Below, in pieces: positions 51,563 through 64,000 of a stretch of DNA of 64,000 nt. Positions within the stretch are counted from its first letter, which is position 1. Each line of letters begins with the position of its first letter. Source of the stretch: Elusimicrobiota bacterium (GTDB lineage: Bacteria; Elusimicrobiota; Elusimicrobia; FEN-1173; JAKLIF01); the NCBI GenBank assembly GCA_022709755.1, contig JAKLIF010000003.1, positions 29,171 to 93,170 on the forward strand. Reading direction: 5' to 3'. The position numbers were made by a program, and so were the translations under genes. The notes under the pieces are model-generated. The model did not search any database. It was not told the origin of the DNA and worked only from the letters and a program-made list of their open reading frames with translations.

Positions 51563-51596
51563 GCGGGCTTTCGGACGGGGCAGTCTCACCGTCCTG

Positions 51597-53111
51597 ATGG
51601 CCTTGTGGATGGGATTGAACGTCGGCCTGGGCGCGACCGACGTCCTTCAAGAGATCGTCGTTCGAGACGGCGACACGCTGTGGAAGATCGCCAACTATTA
51701 TATGAAGGACCCCAAACGCTGGCCCGAACTCCTTCAGTATAATCCCAGGTTGAAGAGCGATCCGACGGTGGCCCTGAGCGGGATGAAACTCCAGGTCCCG
51801 GTCTACCTAATCAAGGAACATCTGCGCGCGGCGGAACTCGTCTATCTCTTGAAAGAGGTCCGCTACAGACGGGACGGGAGCGAACTGTGGAAGCCCGCCG
51901 CCGTCAACATGGAACTGTACAACGAGGACAGCCTCCGCACCATGAAAGAGGCCAAGGCCGACATCCGGTTCCCGACGGGAGAGGTGGTCCACCTGAACGA
52001 GAATTCGCTGGTCCTGGTCCGTCCCGAGAAGGCGAAAGAAGAGCTTTTCCTGATGTCGGGAGACGTGCTGGCCAATCGAGCCAAGGTCATCACCGCCGGC
52101 GGAGCGGAGATCAGCCCCCAGTCTCCCGATGCCCAATACCGGACGCGGATCAAGCCGGATAAGTCGGAACTGGTCCTGGTCTTCAAGGGGAACGTGGACG
52201 TGACCGCGCAAGGGAAGACGGTCCGCATTGCCGAAGGGTTCGGTTCGGAGATCCGGCCGTTGTCACCACCCACCCAGCCCATCCCTCTTCCCCAGATCCC
52301 CGTCGTGGCGGAGAAATACGGCGACCCGGAGAAGAAGGACGTCGCCATCCGTCCGATGTCCACCCGGGACGGACTCATCCTGAAGGTGGATCTGCCTTCT
52401 CTCCAGGTGGAATCTCCGGAGGATCAATCGTCAGCTCCGACGGCAAACAGGGATATCCCGGGGGCTCCCCCGTCGTCCCGGTCCCAGGCGATTACGGCTA
52501 AAAATTTCATCCAAAGATACCGGATTCAGATCAACAAGACCAAAGATTTCTCGAGCCCGCTCGTCGATGGCGTGTATCCTATTTCCCAGAAATTGAACCT
52601 GACCAAACAGGGTCTGGCGGACGGGGAGTATTGGTGGAGGATCGCCTATATCGATTCTTTGGGGCTGGAGGGTCGTTTTTCGACGCCTCAGTCGTTCCAG
52701 GTGGACCTGACACCTCCCGCCTTGATTGTGGCCAGCCCCCTCGAGGGGGAGGAGTTTTCATTTGAGAGCGATGAAATCCGTATTGAGGGAACCTGTGAAC
52801 CCGAGTCCTCCGTGATCGTTGAGGAGAAGGGGATGACTGTCGACGGACAGGGGGTATTCAAGGGCGTAATCTACCTCAAGGAAGGGAAAAACCGGCTGAC
52901 TTTTTTAGCGCGCGACTCTTTCGGGAACCTGACGACCGTCGAGCGGGTCGTCTATCGGTTGGGAGAGGGACAGGAAGGCCGGTATGCGAAACGCGTGGAG
53001 GAGGAAGAAGATTCGGACAAGCCCCGGAAAGAGACGACGTTCGCCACCTTCGGTCTCGGACTGTTGACCATCGGGGTGTTGGTGGGCGTTTTTATTTTGA
53101 TCATCGGTTGA
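51597..53111 (+). CDS. LysM + FecR-like domain protein with C-terminal TM anchor
   Basis: LysM VVRDGDTLWKIANYY...LLQYN. FecR-like beta-rich segment. C-terminal TM TTFATFGLGLLTIGVLVGVFILIIG. Start set to MALWMGL, downstream of the kinase stop. Confidence 0.6.
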   Translation: MALWMGLNVGLGATDVLQEIVVRDGDTLWKIANYYMKDPKRWPELLQYNPRLKSDPTVALSGMKLQVPVYLIKEHLRAAELVYLLKEVRYRRDGSELWKPAAVNMELYNEDSLRTMKEAKADIRFPTGEVVHLNENSLVLVRPEKAKEELFLMSGDVLANRAKVITAGGAEISPQSPDAQYRTRIKPDKSELVLVFKGNVDVTAQGKTVRIAEGFGSEIRPLSPPTQPIPLPQIPVVAEKYGDPEKKDVAIRPMSTRDGLILKVDLPSLQVESPEDQSSAPTANRDIPGAPPSSRSQAITAKNFIQRYRIQINKTKDFSSPLVDGVYPISQKLNLTKQGLADGEYWWRIAYIDSLGLEGRFSTPQSFQVDLTPPALIVASPLEGEEFSFESDEIRIEGTCEPESSVIVEEKGMTVDGQGVFKGVIYLKEGKNRLTFLARDSFGNLTTVERVVYRLGEGQEGRYAKRVEEEEDSDKPRKETTFATFGLGLLTIGVLVGVFILIIG

Positions 53112-53120
53112 GTCGCCCCC

Positions 53121-55427
53121 ATGGATCGACGAGACGGGGTGGCCGCCGTTGTGTTCTCCCTGATCGGCCTCCTGTGGCTGTTCCCTCAGATTTTCCTCGG
53201 TCGGATCCCCTTCGTCGGCGATCTTCTGAATTCTTTCAACCCGTGGTTCACTTCCGCGGCCCAGGCGCTCCAGTCGGGCCGTCTCCCTCTCTGGAATCCT
53301 TATACCGCTTCCGGTGAACCGTTCCTGGCCAATCCCCAGGCGATGATGTTCTATCCCGGAGCCCTGGTCTTCTGGCTGTTTCCTTATGGGTTCGCCTGGC
53401 CCGCCTTTCTAATGATGCATGTGGTCCTGATCGGTGCGGGGACTTTTTTATTGGCCAAGAAATGGGGTTTCTTGACGGGACAAGCCCTTTTTATCGCCTT
53501 GGCGATGGTTTGGAACGGCTTCATGGTCGTCCATTGGGAGTTCCCACCGGCGTTGGCGGCGTCGGCCTATGTCAGCTTGATGATCCTCGTCGGCGGGGCC
53601 TATCGGTCTCGCGTGTCGCCGATGTGGGTTGGTTTTGTGTTGGCCATCACGACGACACTCTTGTGTTTGACCGGTTATCCCCACTTCATCTACTACATAC
53701 TCCTCTTGGCGGTCGTTCACCGGCTCACGGAGAGCGGTCGGCGTTTGTGGCGTGGAGACGAGCCCCGGTTCAAGACCGTCTATCATGTCCTTCTGTGGGG
53801 GGCTTTTGTCGGTTTTGGAATCGTCATGAGTCTTCCTCAATGGGGACCGGCCTTGGAAGCCGTTTCCCAGTCCATCCGCAACAGGATTCCGCTGAACTCC
53901 GCGGCGGATTACAGCCTCAATCCGGCGTTCATCCTTAAATTCATCATCCCCGATATCGTCGACAAAGTGGCTCTCCCGTTCCGTTCCTCTCCTTTCGGAG
54001 CTGAATTCTGGCCGTTGCAGCGCAACTGGTTGACCACGTTCTTCATCGGGACGGGGCCGTTCGTGCTGGCGCTGGCCGCACTGCGACACCGGTCTCGATG
54101 GCATCTGGCGGGAGTGGCCCTGTTCGCCGGGATGTTGGCTTGCGCGATGCCGGTCGTGTTCCCGCTGGTTTGGACCCTGTTCCCGGGGATGAGATACATG
54201 ACTCATTTCGCCAACGCCATGTTGATTGCCGTCTGGGCGGTTGTTTTCCTGGCGGGCTTCGGGCTGAAAGACCTGTCCGGCGACCGGAAGCCGGCGCTCC
54301 TCCTCCTGGCCTTGGTGGCCGTGGTCTCGACGGTCGTGGCGTTGAGCGGGACTTTTCGGGGGATGTCGGCCCGTTGGCTTCTGGGACTCGGGTCTCTGAG
54401 CGAGGCCCAACATATGTGGATGAAGACGGCCGCGTGCCATAGCGTGGTCTGGATGGCGCTCTGGGCCGGATTGTTCTTTTTTCGCTGGAAGGGGAAGACT
54501 TTGTCCCTGTTGGCCTTGTTGTCGGCTGAACTGTGGATGTTCGGCCATGATATCCATCCCTTGACCCGTCATTCCTTCTTCCATGAGCCGGTGACATTGG
54601 CGCGTTTCGTCCAAACGAAAGATGTGCGCTTTGTGATGGATCCGGAACTCATGAAGAAGAGCCGGATCATGACCGGTGATTCCCTGGCGGCGGGTTATCA
54701 GAGTATACGTCAGGTCCTTTATCCCAATGTCCATCTGCCCTTTCGTGTGGAGGCGGCGTGGGGTTATGAGGTCATGCCGAATAAAGCCTACGCCGATTTC
54801 CGACGACAAATATCCGGGAATCTCCTGGAAAACCGGTTGGTGCGGTTCCTGTCCGGAGGCATCGTCCTCTCTGAAACCGATCAGGGTCGTTTCAAGCGGG
54901 CGGATCATTACCATTTCAGCGTCCATGATAACCCCGACGTTCTTCCCAAGGCGACATGGAATTCCAGACGGAAAGTCATTCCGGGGAGCGACGAACGCCT
55001 TCGTTACCTGGTTCGGGAATGGGATCCTTCTTCCGAGACGGTCTTGGAGACGGGGACCGAGGGGGGAGCGCTGACGGGAGTTCAGGGCGGACCGTTGTCG
55101 TTTGGAGAGACGGAAGAGAGTGTTTCTGTCCGGGGGGAACGGTCCACGGCGGGATTTCTTGTGATGAACCGGATCTATTATCCCGGATGGGAAGTGTTCG
55201 TCAATGGAAAGAGGGGAACCCTCCTGCGAGCCAACCATGCTTTTCAATGCGTTGAGACGCCCGCTGGGTATTGGGACGTCGTTTTTAAATATCGGCCCAG
55301 AATTTTTTATTTGGCGGTATGGGGGTTTGTGTCTGTCTCGTTGTTCCTGATCGCATCCAATCTGTTGATGGCGATCCCGAAAAAAAGGGCTTTTTTTGCG
55401 TCAAAAAACGCAAAATACAGGGTTTAA
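53121..55427 (+). CDS. YfhO-family large polytopic membrane protein (glycosyl-modification-associated)
   Basis: 768 aa, ~14 TM helices and a C-terminal extracytoplasmic domain, typical of the YfhO/DUF2723 architecture. Confidence 0.65.
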   Translation: MDRRDGVAAVVFSLIGLLWLFPQIFLGRIPFVGDLLNSFNPWFTSAAQALQSGRLPLWNPYTASGEPFLANPQAMMFYPGALVFWLFPYGFAWPAFLMMHVVLIGAGTFLLAKKWGFLTGQALFIALAMVWNGFMVVHWEFPPALAASAYVSLMILVGGAYRSRVSPMWVGFVLAITTTLLCLTGYPHFIYYILLLAVVHRLTESGRRLWRGDEPRFKTVYHVLLWGAFVGFGIVMSLPQWGPALEAVSQSIRNRIPLNSAADYSLNPAFILKFIIPDIVDKVALPFRSSPFGAEFWPLQRNWLTTFFIGTGPFVLALAALRHRSRWHLAGVALFAGMLACAMPVVFPLVWTLFPGMRYMTHFANAMLIAVWAVVFLAGFGLKDLSGDRKPALLLLALVAVVSTVVALSGTFRGMSARWLLGLGSLSEAQHMWMKTAACHSVVWMALWAGLFFFRWKGKTLSLLALLSAELWMFGHDIHPLTRHSFFHEPVTLARFVQTKDVRFVMDPELMKKSRIMTGDSLAAGYQSIRQVLYPNVHLPFRVEAAWGYEVMPNKAYADFRRQISGNLLENRLVRFLSGGIVLSETDQGRFKRADHYHFSVHDNPDVLPKATWNSRRKVIPGSDERLRYLVREWDPSSETVLETGTEGGALTGVQGGPLSFGETEESVSVRGERSTAGFLVMNRIYYPGWEVFVNGKRGTLLRANHAFQCVETPAGYWDVVFKYRPRIFYLAVWGFVSVSLFLIASNLLMAIPKKRAFFASKNAKYRV

Positions 55428-55467
55428 TCTTTTCGTCGGGGAAAAAGGCTATTTAGCAATAAAACCC

Positions 55468-55496
55468 TTGACAAAATGGGGTTCGGACCCTATACT
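55468..55496 (+). promoter_or_regulatory. sigma70-type promoter: TTGACA - 17 nt - TATACT
   Basis: Exact -35 hexamer at 55468-55473 and -10 hexamer at 55491-55496, with 17-nt spacing, 40 nt after the yfhO-like stop. Predicted TSS ~55503. Confidence 0.55.
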
Positions 55497-55504
55497 TGGA
55501 GTGA

Positions 55505-55630
55505 CGATAAGGGCAACCCTCGGTGAAAGCTGGGGGGCGCAAAGCTACGGGGCTAAAGAGAGGTCATTCTATATCCAAAGTGAAAGCTTTGGATACCTTC
55601 CGCGAGGGAGGGCTGGCCGAGCTGCCGAAT
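55505..55630 (+). ncRNA. c-di-GMP-I (GEMM) riboswitch-like aptamer, copy 1 (divergent, extended P3)
   Basis: AAGGGCAACCC - hairpin with GAAA tetraloop (CCUCGGU GAAA GCUGGGG) - GGGCGCAAAGCUACGGGGCUAAAG ... GGCUGGCCGAGCUGCCGAA. This matches the GEMM-I order GGCAAACC / GNRA-capped P2 / GACGCAAAGCC-ACGGG / P3 / ...GCCGA. One A is missing from the GGCAAAC box. Confidence 0.5.
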
Positions 55631-55688
55631 TATGACGAGAGCAGTTGCTCGTGCGTTCGTGCAGCCGTGGGACTCGATCCCATGTTTT

Positions 55689-55724
55689 AGCCGCGTTTGC
55701 TCAGTGCAAATGGCGGCTTTTTTA
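55689..55724 (+). terminator. intrinsic terminator (expression platform of riboswitch 1): AGCCGCGTTTGC-tcagt-GCAAAtgGCGGCT + TTTTTT
   Basis: ~11-bp GC-rich stem with a 5-nt loop, immediately followed by a T6 run. Read directly from the sequence. Confidence 0.6.
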
Positions 55725-55791
55725 TTCAGTCTGAAACATTGATCTTTTGATTCGCTCGACAAATCTCCTTTAACCGGGAGGCCTTTCCAAG

Positions 55792-55886
55792 AGTTCGGAA
55801 AGGGGCAAACCCGTCGCAAGACGGGGACGCAAAGCCACGGGCCCAGGAACCGCTGAATGGTTTTGGGGCAGCCGGGTTGCCGAAGA
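55792..55886 (+). ncRNA. c-di-GMP-I (GEMM) riboswitch aptamer, copy 2
   Basis: GUUCGGAAAGGGGCAAACC CGUC-GCAA-GACG GGGACGCAAAGCCACGGGCCC...GGGGCAGCCGGGUUGCCGAAG. It has the GGCAAACC box, a GNRA-capped P2, the GACGCAAAGCC-ACGGG core and the 3' GCAGCCGGGUUGCCGA element, nearly identical to the V. cholerae Vc2 consensus. P1 is UUCGG/CCGAA. Downstream leader ends in a U8 tract (56027-56035) just before the GGAGAGG SD of the first cluster gene. Confidence 0.7.
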
Positions 55887-56049
55887 ACAGACGTGTTTGG
55901 CCGACGGCGTTGTAACTTATAAGAAAGACGGCGCTGTAGGTACAATCACTTCATTTTCTTCTTTTGTATCAGCCGGTGACCGTGGTCACGAGCGATCAGT
56001 GATAGTCAGTGACATCGGGCGTCGGCATTTTTTTTGAACGGAGAGGAAA

Positions 56050-56463
56050 ATGAACCAAAAACGGCTTCAAACGATGGCAGTCGCGGCGGGGATCCTGGGA
56101 TGGATCCTTTGCGTGACGCCTGTTTGTCAGCCGGGCCACAGCATCGCCATCCAATCCCTCGAAAACCTGACCAATTACCCCAACCCGTTCGATTCCCGTT
56201 CCGCCGTCACCGTGATCGCCTATACGCTGCCTTCTGAAGCCAGCGTCAAGATCGTCATTTTCGATTTGGGCGGCAATGAGATCCGCCGTTGGGACATCTC
56301 CGCCGGGACGGAGGGATCTCGGCAAGGTTCGAACAGATGGACATGGGATGGAACGGATGAATCGGGGAGCAAAGTTGCGGCGGGGGGGTATGTGTGCCGC
56401 GTGATGGTGGAAGAGGGATACGGTTTCTCTTCCGGAGTCCGGAAGATCGGAGTGATCCGGTAA
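56050..56463 (+). CDS. small secreted protein with FlgD-Ig-like / T9SS C-terminal-domain-like beta-sandwich
   Basis: Signal peptide MNQKRLQTMAVAAGILGWILCVTPVCQ. YPNPFDSRSAVTVIAYTLPSEASVKIVIFDLGGNEIRRW...WTWDGTDESGSKVAAGGYVCRVMVE follows the NPF...I.Y.L......I.D..G..V......G....W.G.D..G..V..G.Y pattern of FlgD Ig-like/Por_Secre_tail domains. GGAGAGG SD. Confidence 0.6.
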   Translation: MNQKRLQTMAVAAGILGWILCVTPVCQPGHSIAIQSLENLTNYPNPFDSRSAVTVIAYTLPSEASVKIVIFDLGGNEIRRWDISAGTEGSRQGSNRWTWDGTDESGSKVAAGGYVCRVMVEEGYGFSSGVRKIGVIR

Positions 56464-56475
56464 CGGAGAACGGCC

Positions 56476-58119
56476 ATGAGACAAGGACTGACCTCATCGA
56501 GCTTCTTCGGAAACCAGGCCCGGCGGCGGTTCGCCGGCCGGCTGGTGTCGGTCCTTCTTGCGGCTCTCCAGGTGGTCTCTCTGTTCCCGATGTCGGCGTC
56601 GGCTCAGGCCAAAGGAGGCGCTCCGGGACAATTCCTCTCGTGGGGAACCGGCGCCCGCAGCATGGGGATGGGAAAGGCCTTCTCCGCCATCGCCGACGAC
56701 GCCACTTCCGTTTATTGGAACCCGGCCGCGATGGTTCAGGCCGAACGGAAAGAGTTGTCCGCCATGCACGTGACCCTTTTCAAAGACACCGCCTACGATT
56801 CCATCAGCTATGTCCACCCGACTTCCAGAGCCGGCACGCTCGGCCTTAATTTCACCCGTCTCTTGTCCTCCGGATTCGAGAAGATCGGGATCAGCATCGA
56901 CCCCAAATCGCAGGAGATCGTCAAGTTGGAGAAGCTCGGCACTTTCGACGACCTTCAACAGGCCTACACGCTGGCTTACGGAAAACAGTTCACGGAAAAG
57001 ATGTCCATCGGCGTGTCCGTCAAACAGATCAGCCATCAGATGGATACGTTCAAACAGGGGTTCGTGGCCGTCGATGCGGCGTTCTTCGGGCGTGAATTTT
57101 TCCCCCATCACCGGATCGCGCTGGTGGGGCAGAACATCGTTTCCCAGGTCTCCGGACAGACGGACGATCAACTGCCGTTGACGGTACGCGTCGGGAACGC
57201 CTATTCCTTGCTGAGGGACCGCATCAACCTGGGGCTGGATATCACGCAGAACAGTTTTTCCGGGTTGGGCTACAATTTCGGGGCCGAATATTGGGTCCTG
57301 CGGTGGGCGGCGCTGAGGCTCGGGATCGAGGCGCATAGCGAAGGAATCGCGGAGACGAGCGTCGGGTTGGGGTTGAAACATCGGAACTATAGCCTGGATG
57401 TCGCCATGGCGATCCATGAACTGGGGATGTCCCAGCGGGTCTCGGCGTCCTGGCGTTTCGGCCGCTCGGTCAAGTCCAGCCAGAGAGAAGAAACCCAGAG
57501 CCTCATCGAACAGGGTCACGAGATGTTCCGGCAGGGCAATTATCTGCAGGCCATCCAGAAATTCAGCGCGGCGTTGGACGTGAACCCGTCCAATAAAGAG
57601 GTCCAGGCCATGGTGGCCAAATTGCAGGATATCGTCTCCGATCTTCCGAAGGCGCCGTCCGGCGACGTGGGCCGGTTGGTGGCTTCCGGCGTCAAGGCGT
57701 ATATGGACGGCGATCTGAACGGCGCGTATGACAGCTTCCGGGCCGCCTTCGATAAGGAGCCGGAGAACGGCCAGTTGATGAATCTGACCAACCGTCTGGC
57801 GAAACAGACCAATCGGCCGATGGTGGAACGGCCCAAGGGCGCCAGCGCGGCCGCCCGATGGACGCTGGTGGACCAGAAGCTGCATGACGCCCTGCAGGCC
57901 ATCTACGAAGGCCGCTATGACGTGGCCATCCAGAAATGCGACGAGGTCCTGCGCATCGAGCCCACGAACGTGGTGGCGATCGGCCGGATGGGCGCGGCGT
58001 TCTTCCTCCTGGGAGAACGGGACAAGGCGGTGGCTCTCTGGAAGCGGGCCCTGGAACTGGATCCGACCCATCGCCCGGCCATCGAATACCTGCAGCAACT
58101 GGGTGAATACAAACGATGA
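56476..58119 (+). CDS. FadL/PorV-like outer-membrane beta-barrel fused to C-terminal TPR repeats
   Basis: Signal peptide ending ...SASAQA. Hatch motif GARSMGMGKAFSAIADDATSVYWNPAAM, the same A-x-AMG-x-AF-x-A-x-ADD-x-S-x-x-x-NPA motif as the FadL at 7806-9065. ~300-aa beta-rich barrel, then ~200 aa of TPR (ALDVNPSNKE..., ALELDPTHRPAIEYL). Confidence 0.65.
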   Translation: MRQGLTSSSFFGNQARRRFAGRLVSVLLAALQVVSLFPMSASAQAKGGAPGQFLSWGTGARSMGMGKAFSAIADDATSVYWNPAAMVQAERKELSAMHVTLFKDTAYDSISYVHPTSRAGTLGLNFTRLLSSGFEKIGISIDPKSQEIVKLEKLGTFDDLQQAYTLAYGKQFTEKMSIGVSVKQISHQMDTFKQGFVAVDAAFFGREFFPHHRIALVGQNIVSQVSGQTDDQLPLTVRVGNAYSLLRDRINLGLDITQNSFSGLGYNFGAEYWVLRWAALRLGIEAHSEGIAETSVGLGLKHRNYSLDVAMAIHELGMSQRVSASWRFGRSVKSSQREETQSLIEQGHEMFRQGNYLQAIQKFSAALDVNPSNKEVQAMVAKLQDIVSDLPKAPSGDVGRLVASGVKAYMDGDLNGAYDSFRAAFDKEPENGQLMNLTNRLAKQTNRPMVERPKGASAAARWTLVDQKLHDALQAIYEGRYDVAIQKCDEVLRIEPTNVVAIGRMGAAFFLLGERDKAVALWKRALELDPTHRPAIEYLQQLGEYKR

Positions 58120-60047
58120 TCTCCGCCCCCTATTATAGAGTAGGTAACTACATGGGGCCCCGCCCCCGGTTCTTGGGTCGCGCGGTCTTCGTTGTGGTGG
58201 CGGCGTTGGTCTGTTCCGGGATTCTGACGGAGACGGGTTTCACCGTCGGCGCCGCCGCCCCGGACCCGGTCATCATCGAACAGGAGAACCTCATCCGCCG
58301 CGAAGCGGAGGAAAAGATCCAGCGGGACATCTTGGACCGCATCCTCGGAGAGGGGCGGGCCAGCGTGCTGGTGAACGTCGAGGTCAGTCTCGAGAGCGAA
58401 AAACGGGAGTCAGGCACGGCGGAAGGGAAAGTGGACGACCGCAAAGGATTGGGCGATCAGGACTACATCCTGCCGTGGGTTCCGGCCCAGAAGTCGGTCA
58501 GCAAGAACAATGAGGTCCCCAAGGACGCCAAGGTGGAATCCGCTTCGGGAGAGATAGCGACCTCCGCGATCCGTCAGGTCGTGCGCCGTTTCGACGTGAC
58601 CGTGATCCACGATGAATCCATGGGCAAACCGCAGATGGAGCTGGTGGATGCGGCCATCCGTTCCGCTTATTCGCGTTACGAGAAGGTCATGAGCGTTATC
58701 TATAAGGCGACCCGGTTTGCCAAATATGAGATGAAGGTCAAGATCAGGGAGGGTTTCTGGGATTTTCTGAAACCCCAGTATCTGTTGCCCGGTCTCATCG
58801 CCCTCCTCCTGTTGTTCTTCCTGTTCGGTCCGGTGTGGCAGTTCCTTCGGGCGGTGTTGAAGGCCATGACGGCCCGCCGTGGAGCGGACATGTTCAGTGA
58901 TTCCAACACACGGCTTGAATCGAAGGGGGAGAACGAGGATAAGGACAAGGATAAAGACGGAAAGAATGGGGAAGGGGAAGAGGCCGATGCTCTGGCGGCC
59001 CTTCAGAAGAAGATGCAGGAGGAGAAATACATCCCCTTCCTCTATGTCGACGATAAGAACCTGAAACGGCTGATCTACCTCATCCGGAAAGAGCCGCCGG
59101 AAGTCATCGCCGTCATCGTGTCTTACCTGAAGCCGGAGTTCGTCAAGGAGATATTGAATTCGCTGGTGCCGGAGTTACAGGCCAAAGTGGCCATGCATAT
59201 GGCCGCGGTGAAACAGATGACGCAGGCGGAGATCCGTTCGTTGGATATGGAGATCAAGGAGAAGATCGATTTTCTCGTGGGGGGTCTCCATTCGTTGTTG
59301 AAGGTCCTCGATGAGGTGAATTCCACCAGCCGTGACAACATCTTGGAATATCTCAAGAACGAACGTCCGAGACTCTATGAGAAGGTGCGGCATTATATCC
59401 TGATGTTCGACGACATCATCAACTTTCCGGACCAGGCCATGCAGATCATCGTCCGTGAGTTAAGGACGGAGAATCTGGCCAAGGCCCTTCAGGGGGCCAG
59501 CCCGGACATCACGAACAAGGTCTTCAACAACATGTCGAAAGGGGCCATGGCTCTTCTCAAGGAGGAGATGGAGTTCAGCCGGGCCTTGACGCCGGATCAG
59601 ATCACGGACGAACGTCAGAAGATATTGAACACCGTCAAGAGCCTTGAATTGGCCGGGAAGATATCGATCCGGGAGAAATTGCCGGATGATTTCCTGGAGT
59701 GGGAGGACATGGAGGTCCTGTCCAACACCGGACAATGGCTCGCCGGCCGTTCTTCGTCGGAACCGGCCGCCTCCCCGGCCGCCAACCCCGAATATTTCAC
59801 GGCAGGAATACAACTCTATCAGGCGGGACAGTATTCGGAAGCACTGCCATATCTTCAGTACGCGGATCAGCTGGACCCCCGGTCCGAGGAGACGAAACAG
59901 TATCTGGGGCACTGCTATTACGCGTTGGGTCAGTACGGCGCCGCGTTGGCGACGTATGAGACGTTGTCAGCGATGAAACCAGGGGATGCGGCTTTGAAAC
60001 AGTGGGTGGAACAGTTCCGCGCGAGCATCTCTCTCCCGACGACATAA
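58116..60047 (+). CDS. chimeric FliF(C-terminal ring-building/TM part)-FliG(middle + C-terminal domains) membrane protein with C-terminal TPR
   Basis: Residues ~50-260 align with the FliF RBM3 and C-terminal TM region: NLIRREAEEKIQRDILDRILGEGRASVLVNVEVSLE versus FliF NDVESRIQRRIEAILSPIVGNGNVHAQVTAQLD, then TM LLPGLIALLLLFFLFGPVWQF. Residues ~300-520 are FliG-like. EPPEVIAVIVSYLKPEFVKEILNSLVPELQAKVAMHMAAV matches the FliG-M EHPQ region. ILMFDDIINFPDQAMQIIVREL...GASPDITNKVFNNMSKGAMALLKEEM...RQKILNTVKSLELAGKISI matches the FliG-C MFxF and charged-helix region. C-terminus is TPR-like (AGIQLYQAGQYSEALPYLQYA...). ATGA overlap with the upstream stop. Confidence 0.7.
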   Translation: MISAPYYRVGNYMGPRPRFLGRAVFVVVAALVCSGILTETGFTVGAAAPDPVIIEQENLIRREAEEKIQRDILDRILGEGRASVLVNVEVSLESEKRESGTAEGKVDDRKGLGDQDYILPWVPAQKSVSKNNEVPKDAKVESASGEIATSAIRQVVRRFDVTVIHDESMGKPQMELVDAAIRSAYSRYEKVMSVIYKATRFAKYEMKVKIREGFWDFLKPQYLLPGLIALLLLFFLFGPVWQFLRAVLKAMTARRGADMFSDSNTRLESKGENEDKDKDKDGKNGEGEEADALAALQKKMQEEKYIPFLYVDDKNLKRLIYLIRKEPPEVIAVIVSYLKPEFVKEILNSLVPELQAKVAMHMAAVKQMTQAEIRSLDMEIKEKIDFLVGGLHSLLKVLDEVNSTSRDNILEYLKNERPRLYEKVRHYILMFDDIINFPDQAMQIIVRELRTENLAKALQGASPDITNKVFNNMSKGAMALLKEEMEFSRALTPDQITDERQKILNTVKSLELAGKISIREKLPDDFLEWEDMEVLSNTGQWLAGRSSSEPAASPAANPEYFTAGIQLYQAGQYSEALPYLQYADQLDPRSEETKQYLGHCYYALGQYGAALATYETLSAMKPGDAALKQWVEQFRASISLPTT

Positions 60048-60052
60048 AAACG

Positions 60053-63000
60053 ATGAACGATAAACTCAAATCTCTGTTCGGCCGAAAAAAAGGGGATCCG
60101 TCCACGGATTCCCGGAACCTTCCTGTTCCGTCGGAACCGGCGCGACCCCCGATGGTCCCTCCTCGGGAGGAAGCCGGATCGTCCGATCAGGCGGCTGATT
60201 CTCTTTTTCAGAAACAGGAGCTTGAACGCGCGGCGGCCACGGCCGAACTTCAGGAGGCCGAGACGGCCGCCGCGGTGAGGCAACAGGCCTTCAACGAAGA
60301 GATGAAGACATTCCATGAGGATATTGAGGCCACCTTGCGCGCGTGGGAGGAACATGCCCTGGTCTCGAAGAAACGATGGACCGAACTGATCGAAAAAAAG
60401 ATGTCGGAGATGAAACAAGAGTCGGAGAAAGCCCTGGAACTCGAATCCCTGCTGAAATATCACAGGGAATCGTCATCCAAGTCCGCCGTCCTCCAGGAGC
60501 AGATGGAGCAGGAGAAAAGACAGTCCCTTGAAAAACAGATGCGGGGCGAGAGGGCCCGGTGGGAACAGCGGCTGGAGGACCAGAAACAGAAGATCGGTTC
60601 TCTCCGCCAGAAGATCGAGGTATTGAGAGGTCAGAAGGTCCTCGAGGAGGAGGCGCACCGCAAGGAGATCGAGACGTTGAAGGCGCAGTTCTCCAGCGAG
60701 ACGTTGCGTCGTCAACGGGAATGGGAACTCATCAAGGGACAATTGGAGAGGACGTTACAAGAGAAAGCCAAAGCCCTGCGGGAGATGAAGCTCAGGACCG
60801 AAGAATTCAAGATGTCGATCGACATGGAGTTGAAGAATCAGGAGGACGAGAAACAGCGGCTGATCTCCACGTCCCAGGAACGGCTCCAGACCCTCGGCCT
60901 CCGGAAACAAAACGAACAGATGAAGTTTGAATCGGTTCTGAAGACCCTCGCGGAGACCCATCAGAAATCGATCGCGGAGTTGGAGATGATCCAGGCCCAG
61001 TCCAAGGCCGAAAAAGAAATCCACCAGAAGGAATATCGGGATCTGGTGGCCAAGGCCCAACAGGATCTTCAGGAATTGGAACATCGTCTCCAGCGCGAGG
61101 AGGGTTCTTTCCGCCAGGTTATCGACGATAAAAATCGGGAAGCGCAGTCCCTGCAAGAACAGCTTGAGCAGATCGAGAAGTCGTCCCAATCGGGATGGAA
61201 AGACGTTCAGTCCCGGCTGGAGCAGGATCGTCTCCAACTGGCCGCCCAGATCCGGTCGCAGGAAGAGGCGTTGCAGAACCTCCTGAAAGAGCAGGAGGAG
61301 AAGTTGAACCGCCAGAAGGCCGATTATGCGGCGCTCCAACAGGCCTGGAGCCAGCGGTTGAAGGAAGAACAGTCCCAGCACGCCCAACTCATCCAAACAT
61401 TGCAGGAGCAGAGGAGAGGGTTGGAGATGAAACAGGCGGAGTTGGAGAAGTCTTTGAACGGGCAGCGCGAAGAGTGGAAAAAACAGATCGTTGAGACGGA
61501 ACGCGCCGTCGCGGAAGCGCAGACTCAATTGTCTCAGAAACAATCCGAGGTTAAGAGGACTCTGCAACGGTTGGAGTGGGACCATCAGGAGGCGGCCCGT
61601 CCGTTGGTGGCGAAAAAGACCGAGATCGAGAGGCGGTTGCAGTCCCTCCAGACCGATTTTCAAAAGGCCATGGAGGACAAGGAACGATGGGTCCAGTCGT
61701 ACGTGGACCAGATGAACCGCCGGGAGGAGGCGGCCAAACGGTTGTACGATGAGCAGAAGAACGCGGCCCAACGGGAACTCGAAAAACTGTCCAAGGCGGA
61801 GGCGGAGGCGTCGGTCCGTTGGAGGGTGGAAGAGCAGAAGATGAGGGAATCCCTCGATCTAAAGAACGTGGAGCTGGGACGTCTCCAGGGGGAACTGTCC
61901 GCGAAGGTGGATCAGGGCCAGGTTGAACAGTCTCAAATGAAGCAACGGTTCGAAGAGGAGTTGCTCCGGCTTCGGGAAGAAGTTAAAGCTGTTTCGGATC
62001 ATGTCGACAAACAGAGACAGGAGAATCAACGGATCTTATCGGAGAAGGATCAAGATATCTCGGCGCTGAAGATCCGCTTGAAAGAACAGGCCCAGCGCCT
62101 CGAAGAGGAGGGGCGTCTCCTCTCCGTCTCTTTCGAAGAAGAACGTTGCCGGTTGCAGAAATCGTTGGAAGAGGAGGAGGTCCGTCGTCAGAAGATCCAA
62201 GAGGGTTGGAATCTCGAGAAAGATTCCCTGATCAATCGTCAAAGGGAACTGGAGAAACAGATCGAAGACGCATCGGTCCTTCATCGTCGGGAGATGGAAG
62301 CGCTCGCCGCGGATCGGGCCAGGGTGCGTCAGCCGCTCTCCCAACAGAAAGCCGATCTGGAGATCCAACTGGAAACCCTGCTGAAGGACCGGGAGGGCGC
62401 GCTTCAGGCCTTGGAGTCGGAAAAGCAGAATCTTGAATATCAACTTCAACAGAAACAGGAGTCGGTGGGGAATATCCGGGAGCGGCATCATCAGGATGTC
62501 GCGAACCTGAAAGACCAGTTTCGGGAACGTTTTGCGCGGATGAGGGAGGAGTGGACCGCGCTGGAAAACCGGCATGCGACGGCGTTGCAGGATCTGGAGC
62601 GCCAGATCCTGAACGTTCAGAAACAGTTTGCGGAAACGAAATCGGAGTTGGATCAGGAAAAAGATAATTTCCTCCAGGTCTCTCATCGGGAGAAGGCGGC
62701 CTTGCTCGACAGTCTCGCGGAATTGGATCGGAAGATCGGTTCCTTCAAGGAAGAGTGGCCCCGGCAACGCCAGGAAAAAATGGATTATCTCGATCAGATT
62801 CAGAAGAAGGTCGCGCTCCTCCAGCGTCAGTTGGATGAACAGGAGAAGGAGTCGGTCCGCGCTCTGGATCAACGGCGCCAGCGGTTCCTGAAACGGGAAT
62901 CGAAAGTCCGGCAGGTGATCGGTTCTCGGACCGAGAAACAGAAACAGGAACTGAATAAGAGTCAGTCTCTCCTCCAATCTCTTCAGAAGGAGACGGCCGG

Positions 63001-64000
63001 ACAGGAACAGTCGTTGCGGAACCAGTTGACCGAAACGGAAAAAGCATACGCGGCCGAGAGGGACCGGTTGGGACAGCAGAAGAAGGAACTGCAGTCCCGA
63101 TGGGAGATCCTCGAGAAGGAACGAGCCGAGGAATTATCGAAATTGAGCGGCGAGATCCAGCGTTTGGAGACCCAATACGCCACTCAGCAATCCCAATGGG
63201 ACAGGCAGCTCCAAAAACAGAGGGAAAACGAGGCCTCGGAGATCGAATCCTTCCATGTCCGGATCCGGGAGATCCTGGAACGGCAGAAGAAGGACGAGGC
63301 GGCGGCGGACGCGGTCATCCAACGGGCGGAGGCGGATCGGGCAAAACTGCAGAAGGAATATGAGGACCGCCGCTGGGCATTGGAATCCCAGATCATCGAA
63401 AAACGGAAACAATGGACACCCCTTTTGGAGAAGATGAAGGAGGAGGTCCGGAGCCTATCGGAGAAAGAGACGGATCTCCTCCAGCGCTTCACGACGGAAA
63501 AAGAGCATCGCGTCAAGAAACTGGCCGATCTTCAGAACCAGCTCCAGAACTGGAACGAGAAGATGCAGGCGGAGAAGAAGGAACATGAGATACGGCATGA
63601 GGATAAGATCGCTTCCCTGCAGGAGCAGATCGATAAGAACACCCAACTGTTGGTCAAGACAAAGAAAGAATTGGACGTGCGGGTGCAGTCGAATCAGGAG
63701 GAGTTGCAGAAAGTCACCACGGATTTGCAGGAACGGGAACGTCAGATCATGGCGCAGATCGACAAAGAGGAGGCGGACTGGAAAGAGGGGCTGACCGCCG
63801 TTGAGGAAGAGGCGCAGCAACTGAAGTCCCGGCTCCAGTCGACAGAGTCCGCCCACCGGGAGACGGTCGGCGGATTGGAAGTGCGCATCAGTCAGATTCA
63901 GATGGAGCTGACCCTGAAGGAGACGCAGCGGGAGTCGGACAAGGCCCGTTTCGAGAGGGAATCGGCCAAGGTCCGCCGTCCTCTGGAACAGAAGTTGAAG
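60053..64000 (+). CDS. giant coiled-coil protein (>1315 aa, 3'-truncated by window end)
   Basis: ATG 5 nt after the FliF/FliG-like stop. The frame is open to the last base of the window. Translation is E/Q/K/R/L-rich with heptad periodicity throughout (e.g. LQEQLEQIEKSSQSGWKDVQSRLEQDRLQLAAQIRSQEEALQNLLKEQEEKL). It is absent from the ORF track only because it has no stop in the window. All minus-strand ORFs in 60.7-63.9 kb are its shadows. Confidence 0.6.
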   Translation, partial: MNDKLKSLFGRKKGDPSTDSRNLPVPSEPARPPMVPPREEAGSSDQAADSLFQKQELERAAATAELQEAETAAAVRQQAFNEEMKTFHEDIEATLRAWEEHALVSKKRWTELIEKKMSEMKQESEKALELESLLKYHRESSSKSAVLQEQMEQEKRQSLEKQMRGERARWEQRLEDQKQKIGSLRQKIEVLRGQKVLEEEAHRKEIETLKAQFSSETLRRQREWELIKGQLERTLQEKAKALREMKLRTEEFKMSIDMELKNQEDEKQRLISTSQERLQTLGLRKQNEQMKFESVLKTLAETHQKSIAELEMIQAQSKAEKEIHQKEYRDLVAKAQQDLQELEHRLQREEGSFRQVIDDKNREAQSLQEQLEQIEKSSQSGWKDVQSRLEQDRLQLAAQIRSQEEALQNLLKEQEEKLNRQKADYAALQQAWSQRLKEEQSQHAQLIQTLQEQRRGLEMKQAELEKSLNGQREEWKKQIVETERAVAEAQTQLSQKQSEVKRTLQRLEWDHQEAARPLVAKKTEIERRLQSLQTDFQKAMEDKERWVQSYVDQMNRREEAAKRLYDEQKNAAQRELEKLSKAEAEASVRWRVEEQKMRESLDLKNVELGRLQGELSAKVDQGQVEQSQMKQRFEEELLRLREEVKAVSDHVDKQRQENQRILSEKDQDISALKIRLKEQAQRLEEEGRLLSVSFEEERCRLQKSLEEEEVRRQKIQEGWNLEKDSLINRQRELEKQIEDASVLHRREMEALAADRARVRQPLSQQKADLEIQLETLLKDREGALQALESEKQNLEYQLQQKQESVGNIRERHHQDVANLKDQFRERFARMREEWTALENRHATALQDLERQILNVQKQFAETKSELDQEKDNFLQVSHREKAALLDSLAELDRKIGSFKEEWPRQRQEKMDYLDQIQKKVALLQRQLDEQEKESVRALDQRRQRFLKRESKVRQVIGSRTEKQKQELNKSQSLLQSLQKETAGQEQSLRNQLTETEKAYAAERDRLGQQKKELQSRWEILEKERAEELSKLSGEIQRLETQYATQQSQWDRQLQKQRENEASEIESFHVRIREILERQKKDEAAADAVIQRAEADRAKLQKEYEDRRWALESQIIEKRKQWTPLLEKMKEEVRSLSEKETDLLQRFTTEKEHRVKKLADLQNQLQNWNEKMQAEKKEHEIRHEDKIASLQEQIDKNTQLLVKTKKELDVRVQSNQEELQKVTTDLQERERQIMAQIDKEEADWKEGLTAVEEEAQQLKSRLQSTESAHRETVGGLEVRISQIQMELTLKETQRESDKARFERESAKVRRPLEQKLK

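What the first reader, a model, noticed from the sequence alone, without database searches (positions are those of the whole stretch)
55468..56049. Tandem c-di-GMP-I (GEMM) riboswitch-like elements with promoter and intrinsic terminator upstream of the cluster
A textbook sigma70 promoter (TTGACA-17-TATACT) is followed by one aptamer-like element (55505-55630), a strong terminator hairpin plus T6 (55689-55724), and a second, near-consensus GEMM-I aptamer (55792-55886). The second aptamer's leader contains long-range complementary segments (GCCGACG 55900-06 / CGTCGGC 56020-26) and ends in a U8 tract just before the SD. The two copies share the CGCAAAGCYACGGG core but differ elsewhere. Tandem arrangements would give a steeper, two-input response to c-di-GMP. 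The region is 620 nt of non-coding sequence with no ORF in the track.
Basis: seen in the sequence. Interest (0 to 1): 0.75.

Follow-up and report, generated by a model that had tools for sequence, protein, structure and literature searches.

The report
Tandem c-di-GMP riboswitches before an operon
The 620-base leader holds two real cyclic-di-GMP class I riboswitches in series, each with its own terminator, a common arrangement that here controls a conserved, uncharacterised cell-envelope gene cluster in an uncultivated Elusimicrobiota bacterium.

Summary
Rfam finds two matches in the whole window, both here: 55502-55629 (c-di-GMP-I, 51.7 bits, cut-off 35) and 55795-55885 (70.1 bits). The second is labelled "c-di-GMP-I-GGC", but it has A, not G, at the variant-defining position, so it is a canonical class I aptamer.

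The promoter, terminator T1 (55689-55723) and the U8 tract are real and conserved in relatives. The proposed stem 55900-06/56020-26 is not supported. The 3' arm pairs with 55972-78 to form terminator T2.

All 17 orthologous Elusimicrobia loci examined carry a class I aptamer before the same PorV-like/FliG-like cluster. Six or seven of the 10 close relatives keep the tandem.

Folding models predict that an enforced aptamer favours its terminator in both units. This suggests OFF/OFF logic: c-di-GMP represses the operon, with Shine-Dalgarno masking as a backup.

One part is unusual. A 43-nt invariant block upstream of aptamer 2 appears to be its own P1/J1-2 strand, split from G20 by two inserted, covarying hairpins. 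That strand also forms a long-range antiterminator with the inside of T2.

Tandem class I switches are well known (347 doublets published). This is a new member of a known kind, with a possibly new aptamer variant.

The parts
55468..55496 (+). Sigma-70-type promoter, TTGACA-17-TATACT. The transcription start is predicted near 55503, at the first base of aptamer 1.
   Evidence: 11/12 match. The same CCTTGACA-16/17-TAnACT sits at the same distance from aptamer 1 in L081, L083, L088, L089, L097, L093 and L001. No other promoter-like site was found on the + strand between 55000 and 56500.
55502..55629 (+). Aptamer 1: a c-di-GMP-I (GEMM-I) aptamer with G20=55512, A47=55541 and C92=55625. P2 has a GAAA tetraloop. 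The P3 loop is replaced by a conserved three-hairpin insertion.
   Evidence: RF01051, 51.7 bits, gathering score 35. It folds on its own to the family architecture in all 7 homologues, with different helix sequences.
55685..55692 (+). UUUUAGCC, complementary to the aptamer-1 P3 5' strand GGCUAAAG (55551-58). It overlaps the 5' arm of T1 and is the predicted antiterminator partner of unit 1.
   Evidence: The duplex of the aptamer-1 core with the T1 5' arm plus loop is -26.3 kcal/mol, against -12.5+-3.2 for shuffles (0/300). The same holds in 5 of 7 homologues at <=1/300. It appears in the free-state MFE.
55689..55723 (+). Intrinsic terminator T1: AGCCGCGUUUGC / GCAAAUGGCGGCU followed by U6.
   Evidence: Homologues keep a hairpin plus U-run at the same place with different arms (GCCGC/GCGGC here, CCACC/GGUGG elsewhere).
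55741..55783 (+). Nearly invariant 43-nt block. It contains the P1 5' strand / antiterminator strand GAUUCGCUCG (55749-58; the P1 part is UCG 55756-58), junction J1/2 ACAAA (55759-63) and hairpin Ha (55764-81, loop UUAACC).
   Evidence: CGAYAAA is the motif that directly precedes G20 in every other aptamer of these loci. Ha has two pairs with compensatory changes.
55782..55803 (+). Hairpin Hb (CCUUUCC/GGAAAGG). It abuts Ha on one side and G20 (55804) on the other, with no linker nucleotides.
   Evidence: Six of 7 pairs change on both sides among 9 homologues. For the combined structure Ha, Hb and the LR helix, 97.9% of cells are paired against 33-56% when slid, and 0/500 shuffles reach that value.
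55795..55885 (+). Aptamer 2 core as matched by Rfam: G20=55804, A47=55831, C92=55880, P2 with a GCAA tetraloop, P3, and the 3' tail GCCGAAG. The P1 3' strand is CGA 55881-83.
   Evidence: 70.1 bits to RF03167, with a second same-clan match above its own cut-off hidden by clan competition. The near-identical core in L094 scores 82 bits to RF01051. It folds to the family architecture alone in 7 of 9 homologues.
55954..55965 (+). Pyrimidine-rich anti-Shine-Dalgarno strand UUUUCUUCUUUU. It pairs with GGAGAGGAAAA around the Shine-Dalgarno site.
   Evidence: Full-length MFE of unit 2. An equivalent CUCCCU.../GGGGGAG helix encloses T2 in L081, L083, L084, L086 and L097.
55972..56035 (+). Terminator T2: 5' arm GCCGGUG 55972-78, interior 55979-56019, 3' arm CGUCGGC 56020-26, U8 56028-35. 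The interior holds the antiterminator strand (CGUGGU 55981-86 and CGAGCGAUC 55989-97).
   Evidence: The T2 arms differ but stay complementary in homologues. The interior pairs with 55749-58 at -16.4 kcal/mol here and -16 to -29 in homologues, against about -10+-2.7 for shuffles. The helix is predicted by RNAalifold.
56040..56052 (+). Shine-Dalgarno GGAGAGG and the ATG of the first regulated gene.
56050..64000 (+). Regulated operon:
- 137-aa secreted protein with a FlgD_ig / T9SS-C-terminal-domain-like fold (56050-56463).
- PorV-family outer-membrane protein with TPR repeats (56476-58119).
- Membrane protein with FliG_M, FliG_C and TPR domains (58116-60047).
- Giant coiled-coil protein of more than 1300 aa that runs off the window (from about 60059).
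   Evidence: The same gene order is found in all close relatives.

Best explanation
One promoter (55468-96) drives a roughly 550-nt leader that contains two complete c-di-GMP class I riboswitches in series. Each has its own intrinsic terminator. Together they control a four-gene envelope operon of an Elusimicrobiota bacterium.

Unit 1 is aptamer 1 (55502-629) plus T1 (55689-723). Without ligand, the 5' strand of aptamer helix P3 (around 55539-58) can pair with the 5' arm and loop of T1, which blocks the terminator. With c-di-GMP bound, that strand is locked in the aptamer and T1 forms.

Unit 2 is an aptamer that actually begins at 55756. It has P1 UCG, junction ACAAA, two inserted hairpins (Ha and Hb), then G20 and the canonical core up to 55885. 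Without ligand, the P1 5' strand and the 7 nt upstream of it (55749-58) pair about 240 nt downstream with 55989-97, inside T2. The two P3 strands also re-pair with neighbouring T2 sequences. This prevents T2. With ligand, P1 and the junction are locked, T2 (55972-56035) forms, and the flanking anti-SD/SD helix also masks the ribosome-binding site.

The net logic is OFF/OFF. The operon is made only when c-di-GMP is low, with a steeper and tighter response than one switch would give.

What is shown and what is inferred:
- Shown: aptamer identity, layout and conservation.
- Inferred from folding models and comparative sequence: the alternative helices, the direction of regulation and the junction insertion.

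Sub-confidences:
- Two functional class I aptamers acting in cis: about 0.95.
- Each has its own terminator: about 0.85.
- OFF direction for both: about 0.6.
- The junction insertion: about 0.55.
For: Identity:
- both hits are above gathering score, and G20, A47 and C92 are visible in the alignments.
- no class II match and no other family.
- the sister aptamer 2 in L094 scores 82 bits to RF01051.

Conservation:
- All 17 of 17 orthologous loci from different Elusimicrobia genomes have a class I aptamer upstream of the cluster.
- The tandem is kept in window, L081, L083, L088, L089, L097 and L001. L093 has aptamer 1 and the start of aptamer 2 before its contig ends.
- The promoter and both terminators are conserved, with compensating arm changes.

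Single transcript:
- Only one promoter-like site was found.
- L094 keeps the promoter and the conserved block but lacks aptamer 1.

Direction, unit 1:
- P(T1) at the decision point rises when the aptamer is enforced. Values are 0.33 to 1.0 (window), 0.02 to 0.98 (L089), 0.04 to 0.99 (L097), 0.03 to 1.0 (L093), 0.74 to 1.0 (L081), 0.83 to 1.0 (L083) and 0.99 to 1.0 (L088).
- The antiterminator duplex is far stronger than shuffles.

Direction, unit 2:
- P(T2) is 0.025 to 0.18, and 0.998 with the full bound model (window). For other loci the pairs of values are L086 0.18 to 0.75/0.98, L089 0.007 to 0.91/1.0, L094 0.003 to 0.74/0.94-1.0 and L083 0 to 0/0.96.
- In L001, P(T2) goes from 0.013 to 0.99.

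Long-range helix:
- It is in the RNAalifold consensus.
- 89% of cells are paired, against 24-35% when slid, with two compensatory pairs.
- Duplex energies beat shuffles in 9 of 9 loci.
- L083 has a 15-bp perfect extension.

Junction insertion:
- CGAYAAA directly precedes G20 in all 19 other aptamers listed.
- In the window clade it precedes Ha and Hb, which then abut G20 with no linker in 9 of 9 loci.
Against: - No ligand binding, transcription start or termination has been measured.
- The direction rests on nearest-neighbour thermodynamics with hard constraints. That method cannot model kinetics, tertiary contacts or pseudoknots.
- In three homologues per unit the terminator is already favoured without the aptamer constraint.
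- In L001, unit 1 shows no coupling at all.
- The long-range helix is almost invariant, so it has little true covariation.
- The nine sequences are related, so the shuffle statistics overstate independence.
- An insertion right next to the ligand-contacting G20 might abolish binding.
- T2 has a 41-nt structured interior and was not picked up by the simple terminator scan.
Confidence: 0.65

Rival explanations
1. The two aptamers are the same, but one or both units are ON switches. c-di-GMP would prevent termination, so the operon would be induced at high c-di-GMP, as expected for an adhesion or secretion system.
For: - Many tandem class I switches, and those upstream of adhesin genes, are thought to be ON (PMC9481103, and general knowledge).
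- The operon encodes PorV-like and T9SS-C-terminal-domain-like proteins. In some relatives it lies next to giant surface-type proteins that carry the same C-terminal domain. This fits a sessile, high-c-di-GMP function.
- The thermodynamic models do not discriminate in L081, L084, L088 or L097, or in unit 1 of L001.
Against: - In no homologue and in neither unit did enforcing the aptamer lower terminator probability. It rose wherever it could change.
- The terminator arms do not overlap aptamer strands, as an ON design needs. Instead the aptamer strands are complementary to terminator 5' arms and interiors.
Confidence: 0.25
2. The two elements are not one regulatory unit. Aptamer 1 plus T1 would be a separate short RNA, for example a c-di-GMP-binding small RNA. 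The invariant block 55741-83 would be a second promoter or a protein-binding site that drives or controls aptamer 2 and the operon.
For: - T1 is strong and is thermodynamically favoured in several homologues whatever the aptamer state.
- The block is more conserved than the aptamer helices.
- It contains CTCGATAAAT, which loosely resembles a sigma-28 -10 element (my reading).
- Three relatives (L084, L086, L094) work with aptamer 2 alone.
Against: - No sigma-70-like site lies in or near the block.
- The sequence where a -35 element would sit is not conserved.
- Parts of the block behave as RNA. Ha has compensatory changes. The 5' part is complementary to the T2 interior in 9 of 9 loci. CGAYAAA equals the aptamer junction motif.
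- L094 and L084 keep the upstream promoter at the usual place although aptamer 1 is lost or degenerate.
Confidence: 0.07
3. One or both aptamers sense a different ligand. The candidates are 3'3'-cGAMP, as in GEMM-Ib, or the unknown ligand of the c-di-GMP-I-GGC variant to which Rfam assigns aptamer 2.
For: - Aptamer 2's best Rfam match is RF03167.
- Seven orthologous loci carry A at position 20, the cGAMP-type signature (PMC9481103 for the role of that position).
Against: - Both window aptamers have G at position 20.
- Both read GCAAAG where the RF03167 consensus reads GCGAAG (alignment).
- None of the 20 aptamers listed has G at that position.
- Sister aptamers flip between the RF01051 and RF03167 labels at similar scores, so the label reflects model competition.
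Confidence: 0.04

Closest known systems
Tandem c-di-GMP-I riboswitches (347 doublets and 12 triplets catalogued by Sherlock et al. 2022, PMC9481103; the Bc3-5 triple tandem of Bacillus thuringiensis)
   Same: Two aptamers of the same class lie in one 5' UTR, each followed by its own intrinsic terminator. The expected result is a more switch-like ('pseudo-cooperative') response to a single ligand.
   Different: - The host phylum is Elusimicrobiota. No paper in the searched library links this phylum with c-di-GMP riboswitches.
- The regulated operon is different.
- The two aptamers are structurally dissimilar. One has a three-hairpin insertion in P3. The other has a probable two-hairpin insertion in J1/2.
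Cd1, the c-di-GMP-I OFF switch before the flgB flagellar operon of Clostridioides difficile (own knowledge; the ON/OFF pair is studied in PMC9262584)
   Same: It is a class I aptamer with a transcription terminator that is favoured by ligand binding. It represses an operon that includes FliG/FlgD-type proteins when c-di-GMP is high.
   Different: - Cd1 is a single switch with a compact platform.
- The window's operon is not a flagellar operon. It has PorV-like, FliG-like and coiled-coil proteins and no other flagellar genes.
- The OFF direction here is only predicted.
Bc1, a c-di-GMP-I riboswitch with a long expression platform and two terminators (PMC11218506)
   Same: Both have a long, structured expression platform downstream of a class I aptamer and more than one terminator in the leader.
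   Different: Bc1 has one aptamer. Here there are two aptamers. In addition, the antiterminator of unit 2 uses the strand upstream of the aptamer core, not only downstream sequence.
Vc2 of Vibrio cholerae, the structural reference for class I (own knowledge: Smith et al. 2009, Kulshina et al. 2009)
   Same: Both have a three-helix junction, a GNRA tetraloop on P2, and G20, A47 and C92 as ligand contacts.
   Different: - Vc2 has a continuous J1/2.
- Window aptamer 2 appears to have about 40 nt (Ha and Hb) inserted between J1/2 and G20.
- Window aptamer 1 has a branched P3.
c-di-GMP-I-GGC variant (Rfam RF03167)
   Same: The overall fold is the same, and the window's aptamer 2 scores 70.1 bits to this model.
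   Different: The nucleotide after the P2-closing GC is G in the RF03167 consensus (GCGAA) but A in the window (GCAAA). I infer from the family name that this is the defining position. On that basis aptamer 2 is not a member.

Membership tests
c-di-GMP-I riboswitch (GEMM-I, RF01051) | Covariance-model score at or above the curated gathering score | tested here: met
   Aptamer 1 scores 51.7 bits against a cut-off of 35. Aptamer 2 scores 70.1 bits to the clan sister RF03167, and one further same-clan match above its own cut-off was hidden by clan competition. Its RF01051 score could not be displayed. The near-identical aptamer 2 of L094 scores 82 bits to RF01051.
c-di-GMP-I riboswitch (GEMM-I, RF01051) | Two hairpins (P2, P3) around a conserved junction, with P2 capped by a GNRA tetraloop | tested here: met
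   Both aptamers fold to this architecture in isolation. The P2 loops are GAAA (aptamer 1) and GCAA (aptamer 2). The helices differ in sequence among homologues but stay paired.
c-di-GMP-I riboswitch (GEMM-I, RF01051) | Tetraloop receptor in P3 (type 1 architecture) | tested here: inconclusive
   Aptamer 1 has GGCUAAAG at the receptor position, and the sisters of aptamer 2 have CCUAAG-like motifs. The window's aptamer 2 reads CCCAGGAA. This was judged by eye only.
c-di-GMP-I riboswitch (GEMM-I, RF01051) | Ligand-contact nucleotides G20, A47 and C92 | tested here: met
   From the Rfam alignments, aptamer 1 has G55512, A55541 and C55625. Aptamer 2 has G55804, A55831 and C55880.
c-di-GMP-I riboswitch (GEMM-I, RF01051) | Selective binding of c-di-GMP and a ligand-dependent change in expression | not testable with these tools
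   This needs in-line probing or ITC, and termination or reporter assays.
c-di-GMP-I-GGC variant (RF03167) | Score at or above the gathering score | tested here: met
   Aptamer 2 scores 70.1 bits against a cut-off of 59. Aptamer 1 scores 48 bits, below the cut-off.
c-di-GMP-I-GGC variant (RF03167) | G in place of A at the intercalating position 47 (model consensus GCGAA). That this is the defining position is my inference from the family name and the two consensus lines. | tested here: not met
   The window reads GCAAAG in both aptamers. None of the 20 aptamers in the related loci has G there.
c-AMP-GMP riboswitch (GEMM-Ib) | A at position 20 (necessary but not sufficient) | tested here: not met
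   Both window aptamers have G at position 20. Seven orthologous loci do have A at position 20.
c-di-GMP-II riboswitch (RF01786) | Match to the class II covariance model | tested here: not met
   No match was found in 55400-56100 even at E<=10.
Tandem riboswitches with independent expression platforms | Two aptamers of one class in the same 5' UTR, each followed by its own intrinsic terminator | tested here: met
   T1 is at 55689-723 and T2 at 55972-56035. The same order is found in L081, L083, L089, L097 and L001. L088 keeps the tandem but has no U-run after the T2-equivalent.
Tandem riboswitches with independent expression platforms | Both aptamers lie on one transcript (a single promoter) | tested here: inconclusive
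   Only one promoter-like site was found on the + strand, and that promoter is conserved. However, the consensus scan covers sigma-70-type sites only, and no transcript data are available.

The most novel reading that the evidence does not exclude
Aptamer 2 may be a structurally new version of the class I c-di-GMP aptamer. Two coaxially stacked hairpins (55764-55803) would be inserted in junction J1/2, immediately 5' of the ligand-contacting G20. In that case the real P1/J1-2 strand lies about 45 nt upstream of the Rfam match. The same upstream strand would double as a roughly 240-nt long-range antiterminator that reaches into the terminator hairpin. The expression platform would then wrap around the aptamer rather than follow it. 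By extension, c-di-GMP would repress a non-flagellar machine of Elusimicrobia built from FliG-like and PorV-like parts.
Probability: 0.4. Interest if true: 0.55.

Novelty: new member of a known kind. Interest (0 to 1): 0.38.

Why it matters
- It gives a direct, testable regulatory handle on an uncultivated phylum. A conserved Elusimicrobia operon of unknown function is tied to c-di-GMP in every lineage examined. The operon encodes a T9SS-C-terminal-domain-like protein, a PorV-like porin with TPR repeats, a membrane FliG-like protein and a giant coiled-coil protein. The link suggests it belongs to the motile/sessile decision.
- For riboswitch biology, the tandem itself is routine.
- The locus does offer a natural case where the same operon is controlled by one or by two class I aptamers in sister lineages.
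- It also offers a case of G20-type and A20-type aptamers controlling the same operon in different lineages.
- A likely junction insertion and a long-range antiterminator could broaden what homology searches should accept as a class I aptamer.

Tried and rejected
2. I proposed a helix between the aptamer-1 3' strand GAGCUGCC and a downstream GCAGC-like element. Its duplex energies are not better than shuffles (34-264 of 300 shuffles as good), so I dropped it as a claimed element.
3. The invariant block as a sigma-70, sigma-54 or sigma-28 promoter. There is no consensus match and no conserved -35 region.
4. A helix between UCUUUU (55744-49) and the aptamer-2 tail GAAGGA. It is weak and inconsistent across homologues (read by eye).
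5. The idea that GCC just before Hb supplies an alternative 'C92'. Those bases are paired in Hb in all homologues.
6. A conventional P1 between the 3' strand of Hb and the aptamer tail. The complementarity is not conserved (read).
7. A metagenome scan with the block's sequence, run to enlarge the alignment, returned only two loci. One was a chance match (L092) and one was truncated (L093). Covariation statistics therefore stay limited to 9-10 related sequences.
8. The RF01051 score of aptamer 2 could not be obtained, because the tool hides lower-scoring clan members.
9. The pairing of the aptamer-2 P3 5' strand with CGUGGY inside T2 shows one A-U to G-C swap. It is not individually better than shuffles, so I kept it only as a secondary element.
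Full report
**What is in the sequence**

An Rfam scan of the whole 64-kb window at gathering thresholds gives exactly two matches, both inside the finding.
- The first is 55502-55629 on the + strand. It matches c-di-GMP-I (RF01051) at 51.7 bits against a cut-off of 35, with a 54-nt insertion in the loop of the second hairpin.
- The second is 55795-55885 on the + strand. It matches c-di-GMP-I-GGC (RF03167) at 70.1 bits against a cut-off of 59.
- A permissive scan of 55400-56100 (E<=10) adds no class II match and no other credible family.

- The promoter TTGACA-17-TATACT lies at 55468-96 and matches 11 of 12 consensus positions.
- A hairpin plus T6 lies at 55689-55723.
- U8 is at 56028-35, the Shine-Dalgarno site at 56040-46 and the ATG at 56050.

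**The 'GGC' label on aptamer 2**

In the alignment printed, the RF03167 consensus reads GACGCGAAgCc and the window reads GACGCAAAGCC. This position is the adenine that intercalates between the two guanines of the ligand in the reference structure. That role is my own knowledge of the Vc2 structures. That the family name encodes the three contact nucleotides is my inference.

Both window aptamers have G at position 20, A at position 47 and C at position 92. None of the 20 aptamers collected from related loci has G at position 47. Sister aptamers flip between the two Rfam labels at similar scores. The aptamer 2 of locus L094, which has nearly the same core, scores 82 bits to RF01051. Aptamer 2 is therefore a canonical class I aptamer, and the variant label is a by-product of competition between related models.

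Position 20 is the one that separates c-di-GMP-selective aptamers (G) from c-AMP-GMP-responsive ones (A) (PMC9481103). Both copies here have G.

**Origin and regulated genes**

The second downstream protein is 100% identical to a PorV/PorQ-family protein of an Elusimicrobiota metagenome-assembled genome. The downstream genes are as follows.
- A 137-aa secreted protein with a FlgD_ig fold. It also resembles the C-terminal sorting domain of type IX secretion cargo, just below that model's cut-off.
- A PorV-family outer-membrane protein with C-terminal TPR repeats. The PorV_fam score is 115.7 against a cut-off of 90.
- A membrane protein with FliG middle and C-terminal domains plus TPR repeats.
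- A coiled-coil protein of more than 1300 aa that runs off the window.

**Conservation**

A scan of one genome per species found 17 full-length orthologues of the PorV-like gene, all in Elusimicrobia. Every one of the 17 loci has a class I aptamer just upstream of the cluster.

Ten loci, counting the window, have PorV proteins 68-77% identical to the window's. They share the gene order FlgD_ig, PorV, FliG-like, giant protein.
- Two aptamers above threshold are present in window, L081, L083, L088, L089 and L097.
- L093 is cut off inside aptamer 2.
- Only aptamer 2 is present in L084, L086 and L094.
- A much more distant genome (L001, 43% PorV identity) has the same series: promoter, aptamer, terminator, aptamer, terminator, Shine-Dalgarno site, FlgD_ig gene.

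The conserved promoter always sits so that transcription would begin at the first bases of aptamer 1. L094, and in degenerate form L084, keep this promoter although aptamer 1 is gone. This argues for a single transcript.

**Unit 1**

Aptamer 1 folds on its own to the family architecture in all seven homologues. The P3 loop is elaborated into three small hairpins whose sequences differ between lineages. T1 is conserved as a hairpin plus U-run with compensating arms: GCCGC/GCGGC in the window and CCACC/GGUGG elsewhere.

The aptamer core (J2/3 plus the P3 5' strand) is complementary to the 5' arm and loop of T1. The duplex energy is -26.3 kcal/mol in the window, against -12.5+-3.2 for shuffles. 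In five of seven homologues, 0-1 of 300 shuffles is as good.

I folded the transcript truncated at the end of T1. The terminator probability rises from 0.33 to 1.0 in the window when the aptamer is enforced. It rises from 0.02-0.04 to at least 0.98 in three homologues. In the other three it is already 0.74-0.99 and goes to 1.0. It never falls. This is the signature of an OFF switch.

**Unit 2 and the invariant block**

Between T1 and aptamer 2 lies a 43-nt block (55741-83) that is nearly invariant in all close relatives. It has three readable parts.

- *The 5' part, GAUUCGCUCG (55749-58).* It is complementary to CGAGCGAUC (55989-97), which lies inside the T2 hairpin.
  - RNAalifold places this helix in the consensus structure.
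  - On a curated mini-alignment, 89% of cells pair against 24-35% when the partner is slid. Two pairs change on both sides.
  - Duplex energies are -16 to -29 kcal/mol against about -10+-2.7 for shuffles in each of nine loci. L083 has a perfect 15-bp extension.
- *Hairpins Ha (55764-81) and Hb (55782-55803).* Both are strongly supported by covariation. In the combined test of Ha, Hb and the long-range helix, 8 pairs have compensatory changes, all of them in Ha or Hb, and 0 of 500 shuffles reach the observed score. Ha, Hb and G20 follow one another with no linker nucleotides in all nine sequences.
- *The motif CGAYAAA, just before Ha.* This is exactly the motif that directly precedes G20 in every other aptamer of these loci.

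The simplest reading is that aptamer 2 really begins at about 55756, with P1 UCG pairing with CGA 55881-83 and junction ACAAA. Ha and Hb would then be a coaxial two-hairpin insertion in the junction.

**How the block explains the switch in unit 2**

The strand that forms P1 also forms the long-range helix with the interior of T2. P1 and the junction therefore compete with that antiterminator.

In thermodynamic models, the long-range helix and T2 are alternatives whose probabilities sum to about 1.
- Enforcing only P2 and P3 shifts the balance toward T2. Values are 0.025 to 0.18 (window), 0.18 to 0.75 (L086), 0.007 to 0.91 (L089) and 0.003 to 0.74 (L094).
- Enforcing P1 and the junction as well gives T2 at least 0.94 in nine of nine loci, at a cost of 3.6-12.8 kcal/mol.
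- In L001, which lacks the insertion, T2 goes from 0.013 to 0.99.

T2 is itself enclosed by a helix between a pyrimidine-rich strand (55954-65) and the Shine-Dalgarno region. Transcripts that escape termination in the bound state would therefore also be poorly translated. L088 has no U-run after the T2-equivalent and seems to rely on this masking alone.

The stem 55900-06 x 56020-26 has probability 0 in all constructs. The stem 55972-78 x 56020-26 has about 0.98 in the full-length unit, and it is the arm conserved in homologues.

**Comparison with what is known**

Tandem class I c-di-GMP riboswitches are the most numerous tandem riboswitch arrangement described, with 347 doublets and 12 triplets. 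Each aptamer usually has its own terminator, and the arrangement is interpreted as giving a more digital response (PMC9481103; see also PMC12452182). The finding is thus a new example of a well-known arrangement.

No paper in the searched library combines Elusimicrobia with c-di-GMP riboswitches. What may be new is the architecture of aptamer 2 and its wrap-around expression platform. This rests on sequence comparison of nine related leaders and on nearest-neighbour folding only.

**Limits**

- All conclusions on direction are model-based.
- In three homologues per unit, the terminator wins with or without the constraint.
- Kinetics, pseudoknots and tertiary contacts are not modelled.
- The long-range helix is almost invariant, so it shows little covariation.
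- The sequences share ancestry, so the shuffle controls overstate independence.
- A metagenome scan to add sequences found only one usable, truncated locus.

**Verdict**

This is a real, conserved tandem of c-di-GMP class I riboswitches. The predicted logic is repression of the envelope operon by c-di-GMP at two successive terminators, plus masking of the ribosome-binding site. Interest is moderate: the class and arrangement are routine, while the host, the target operon and the aptamer-2 anatomy are noteworthy.

Noticed in passing
L002 1243-1335; L003 3827-3905; L006 3856-3937; L007 327-404; L013 3807-3885; L016 3840-3918; L017 3818-3896: In seven orthologous Elusimicrobia loci, the single aptamer before the same PorV-like cluster has A instead of G at position 20 (UAGCAAA). 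This is the signature associated with c-AMP-GMP-responsive or promiscuous class I variants. The same operon may answer to a different cyclic dinucleotide in those lineages.
   Followed up: partly
window 56050-64000: The regulated cluster combines four genes: a small secreted protein that is little more than a T9SS-type C-terminal domain, a PorV-family porin fused to TPR repeats, a membrane protein with FliG middle and C-terminal domains plus TPR repeats, and a coiled-coil protein of more than 1300 aa. The order is conserved across Elusimicrobia. I could not assign it to any described machine.
   Followed up: partly
L084 1-1812; L086 1-1745; L091 1-2496: In three relatives, the gene just upstream of the leader encodes a giant protein (4066, 8079 and 5123 aa as called). 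In L084 and L086 its last 80 residues closely resemble the C-terminal domain of the first riboswitch-controlled gene (…GGYILRLEVRGSKGTTTVIRKIGIIH). These may be cargo of the PorV-like system.
   Followed up: partly
L084 about 1990-2130; L086 about 1850-2240; L094 2080-2240: Three close relatives have lost aptamer 1, and L084 keeps a recognisable stump of its first bases. L084 and L094 keep the upstream promoter and all three keep the invariant block. Sister lineages therefore run the same operon with one or with two switches.
   Followed up: partly
L088 2510-2580: The T2-equivalent hairpin of L088 is not followed by a U-run. Instead, CUCCGAGAG pairs with CUCUUCGGAG over the Shine-Dalgarno site. 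This lineage seems to have replaced termination by purely translational control.
   Followed up: no
window 55770-55775: The loop of hairpin Ha (UUAACC; UCUAACA in L083 and UUAAUC in L089) is almost invariant. No partner for it was found in the leader, and its role is unexplained. It could be a tertiary contact or a protein site.
   Followed up: no
window 42875-44899 and 49352-51562: A CHASE2-sensor class III nucleotidyl (adenylate/guanylate) cyclase and a dCache-HAMP-PAS histidine kinase lie 4-11 kb upstream of the riboswitch leader. No GGDEF or EAL gene was seen among the ten upstream ORFs scanned.
   Followed up: no
window 51522-55427: The two genes immediately upstream encode a LysM/FecR-domain protein with a glucodextranase-B-like domain and a 768-aa polytopic membrane protein with a weak YfhO-like C-terminus. 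The genes upstream of the leader differ in every relative, so the leader and operon behave as one module.
   Followed up: no
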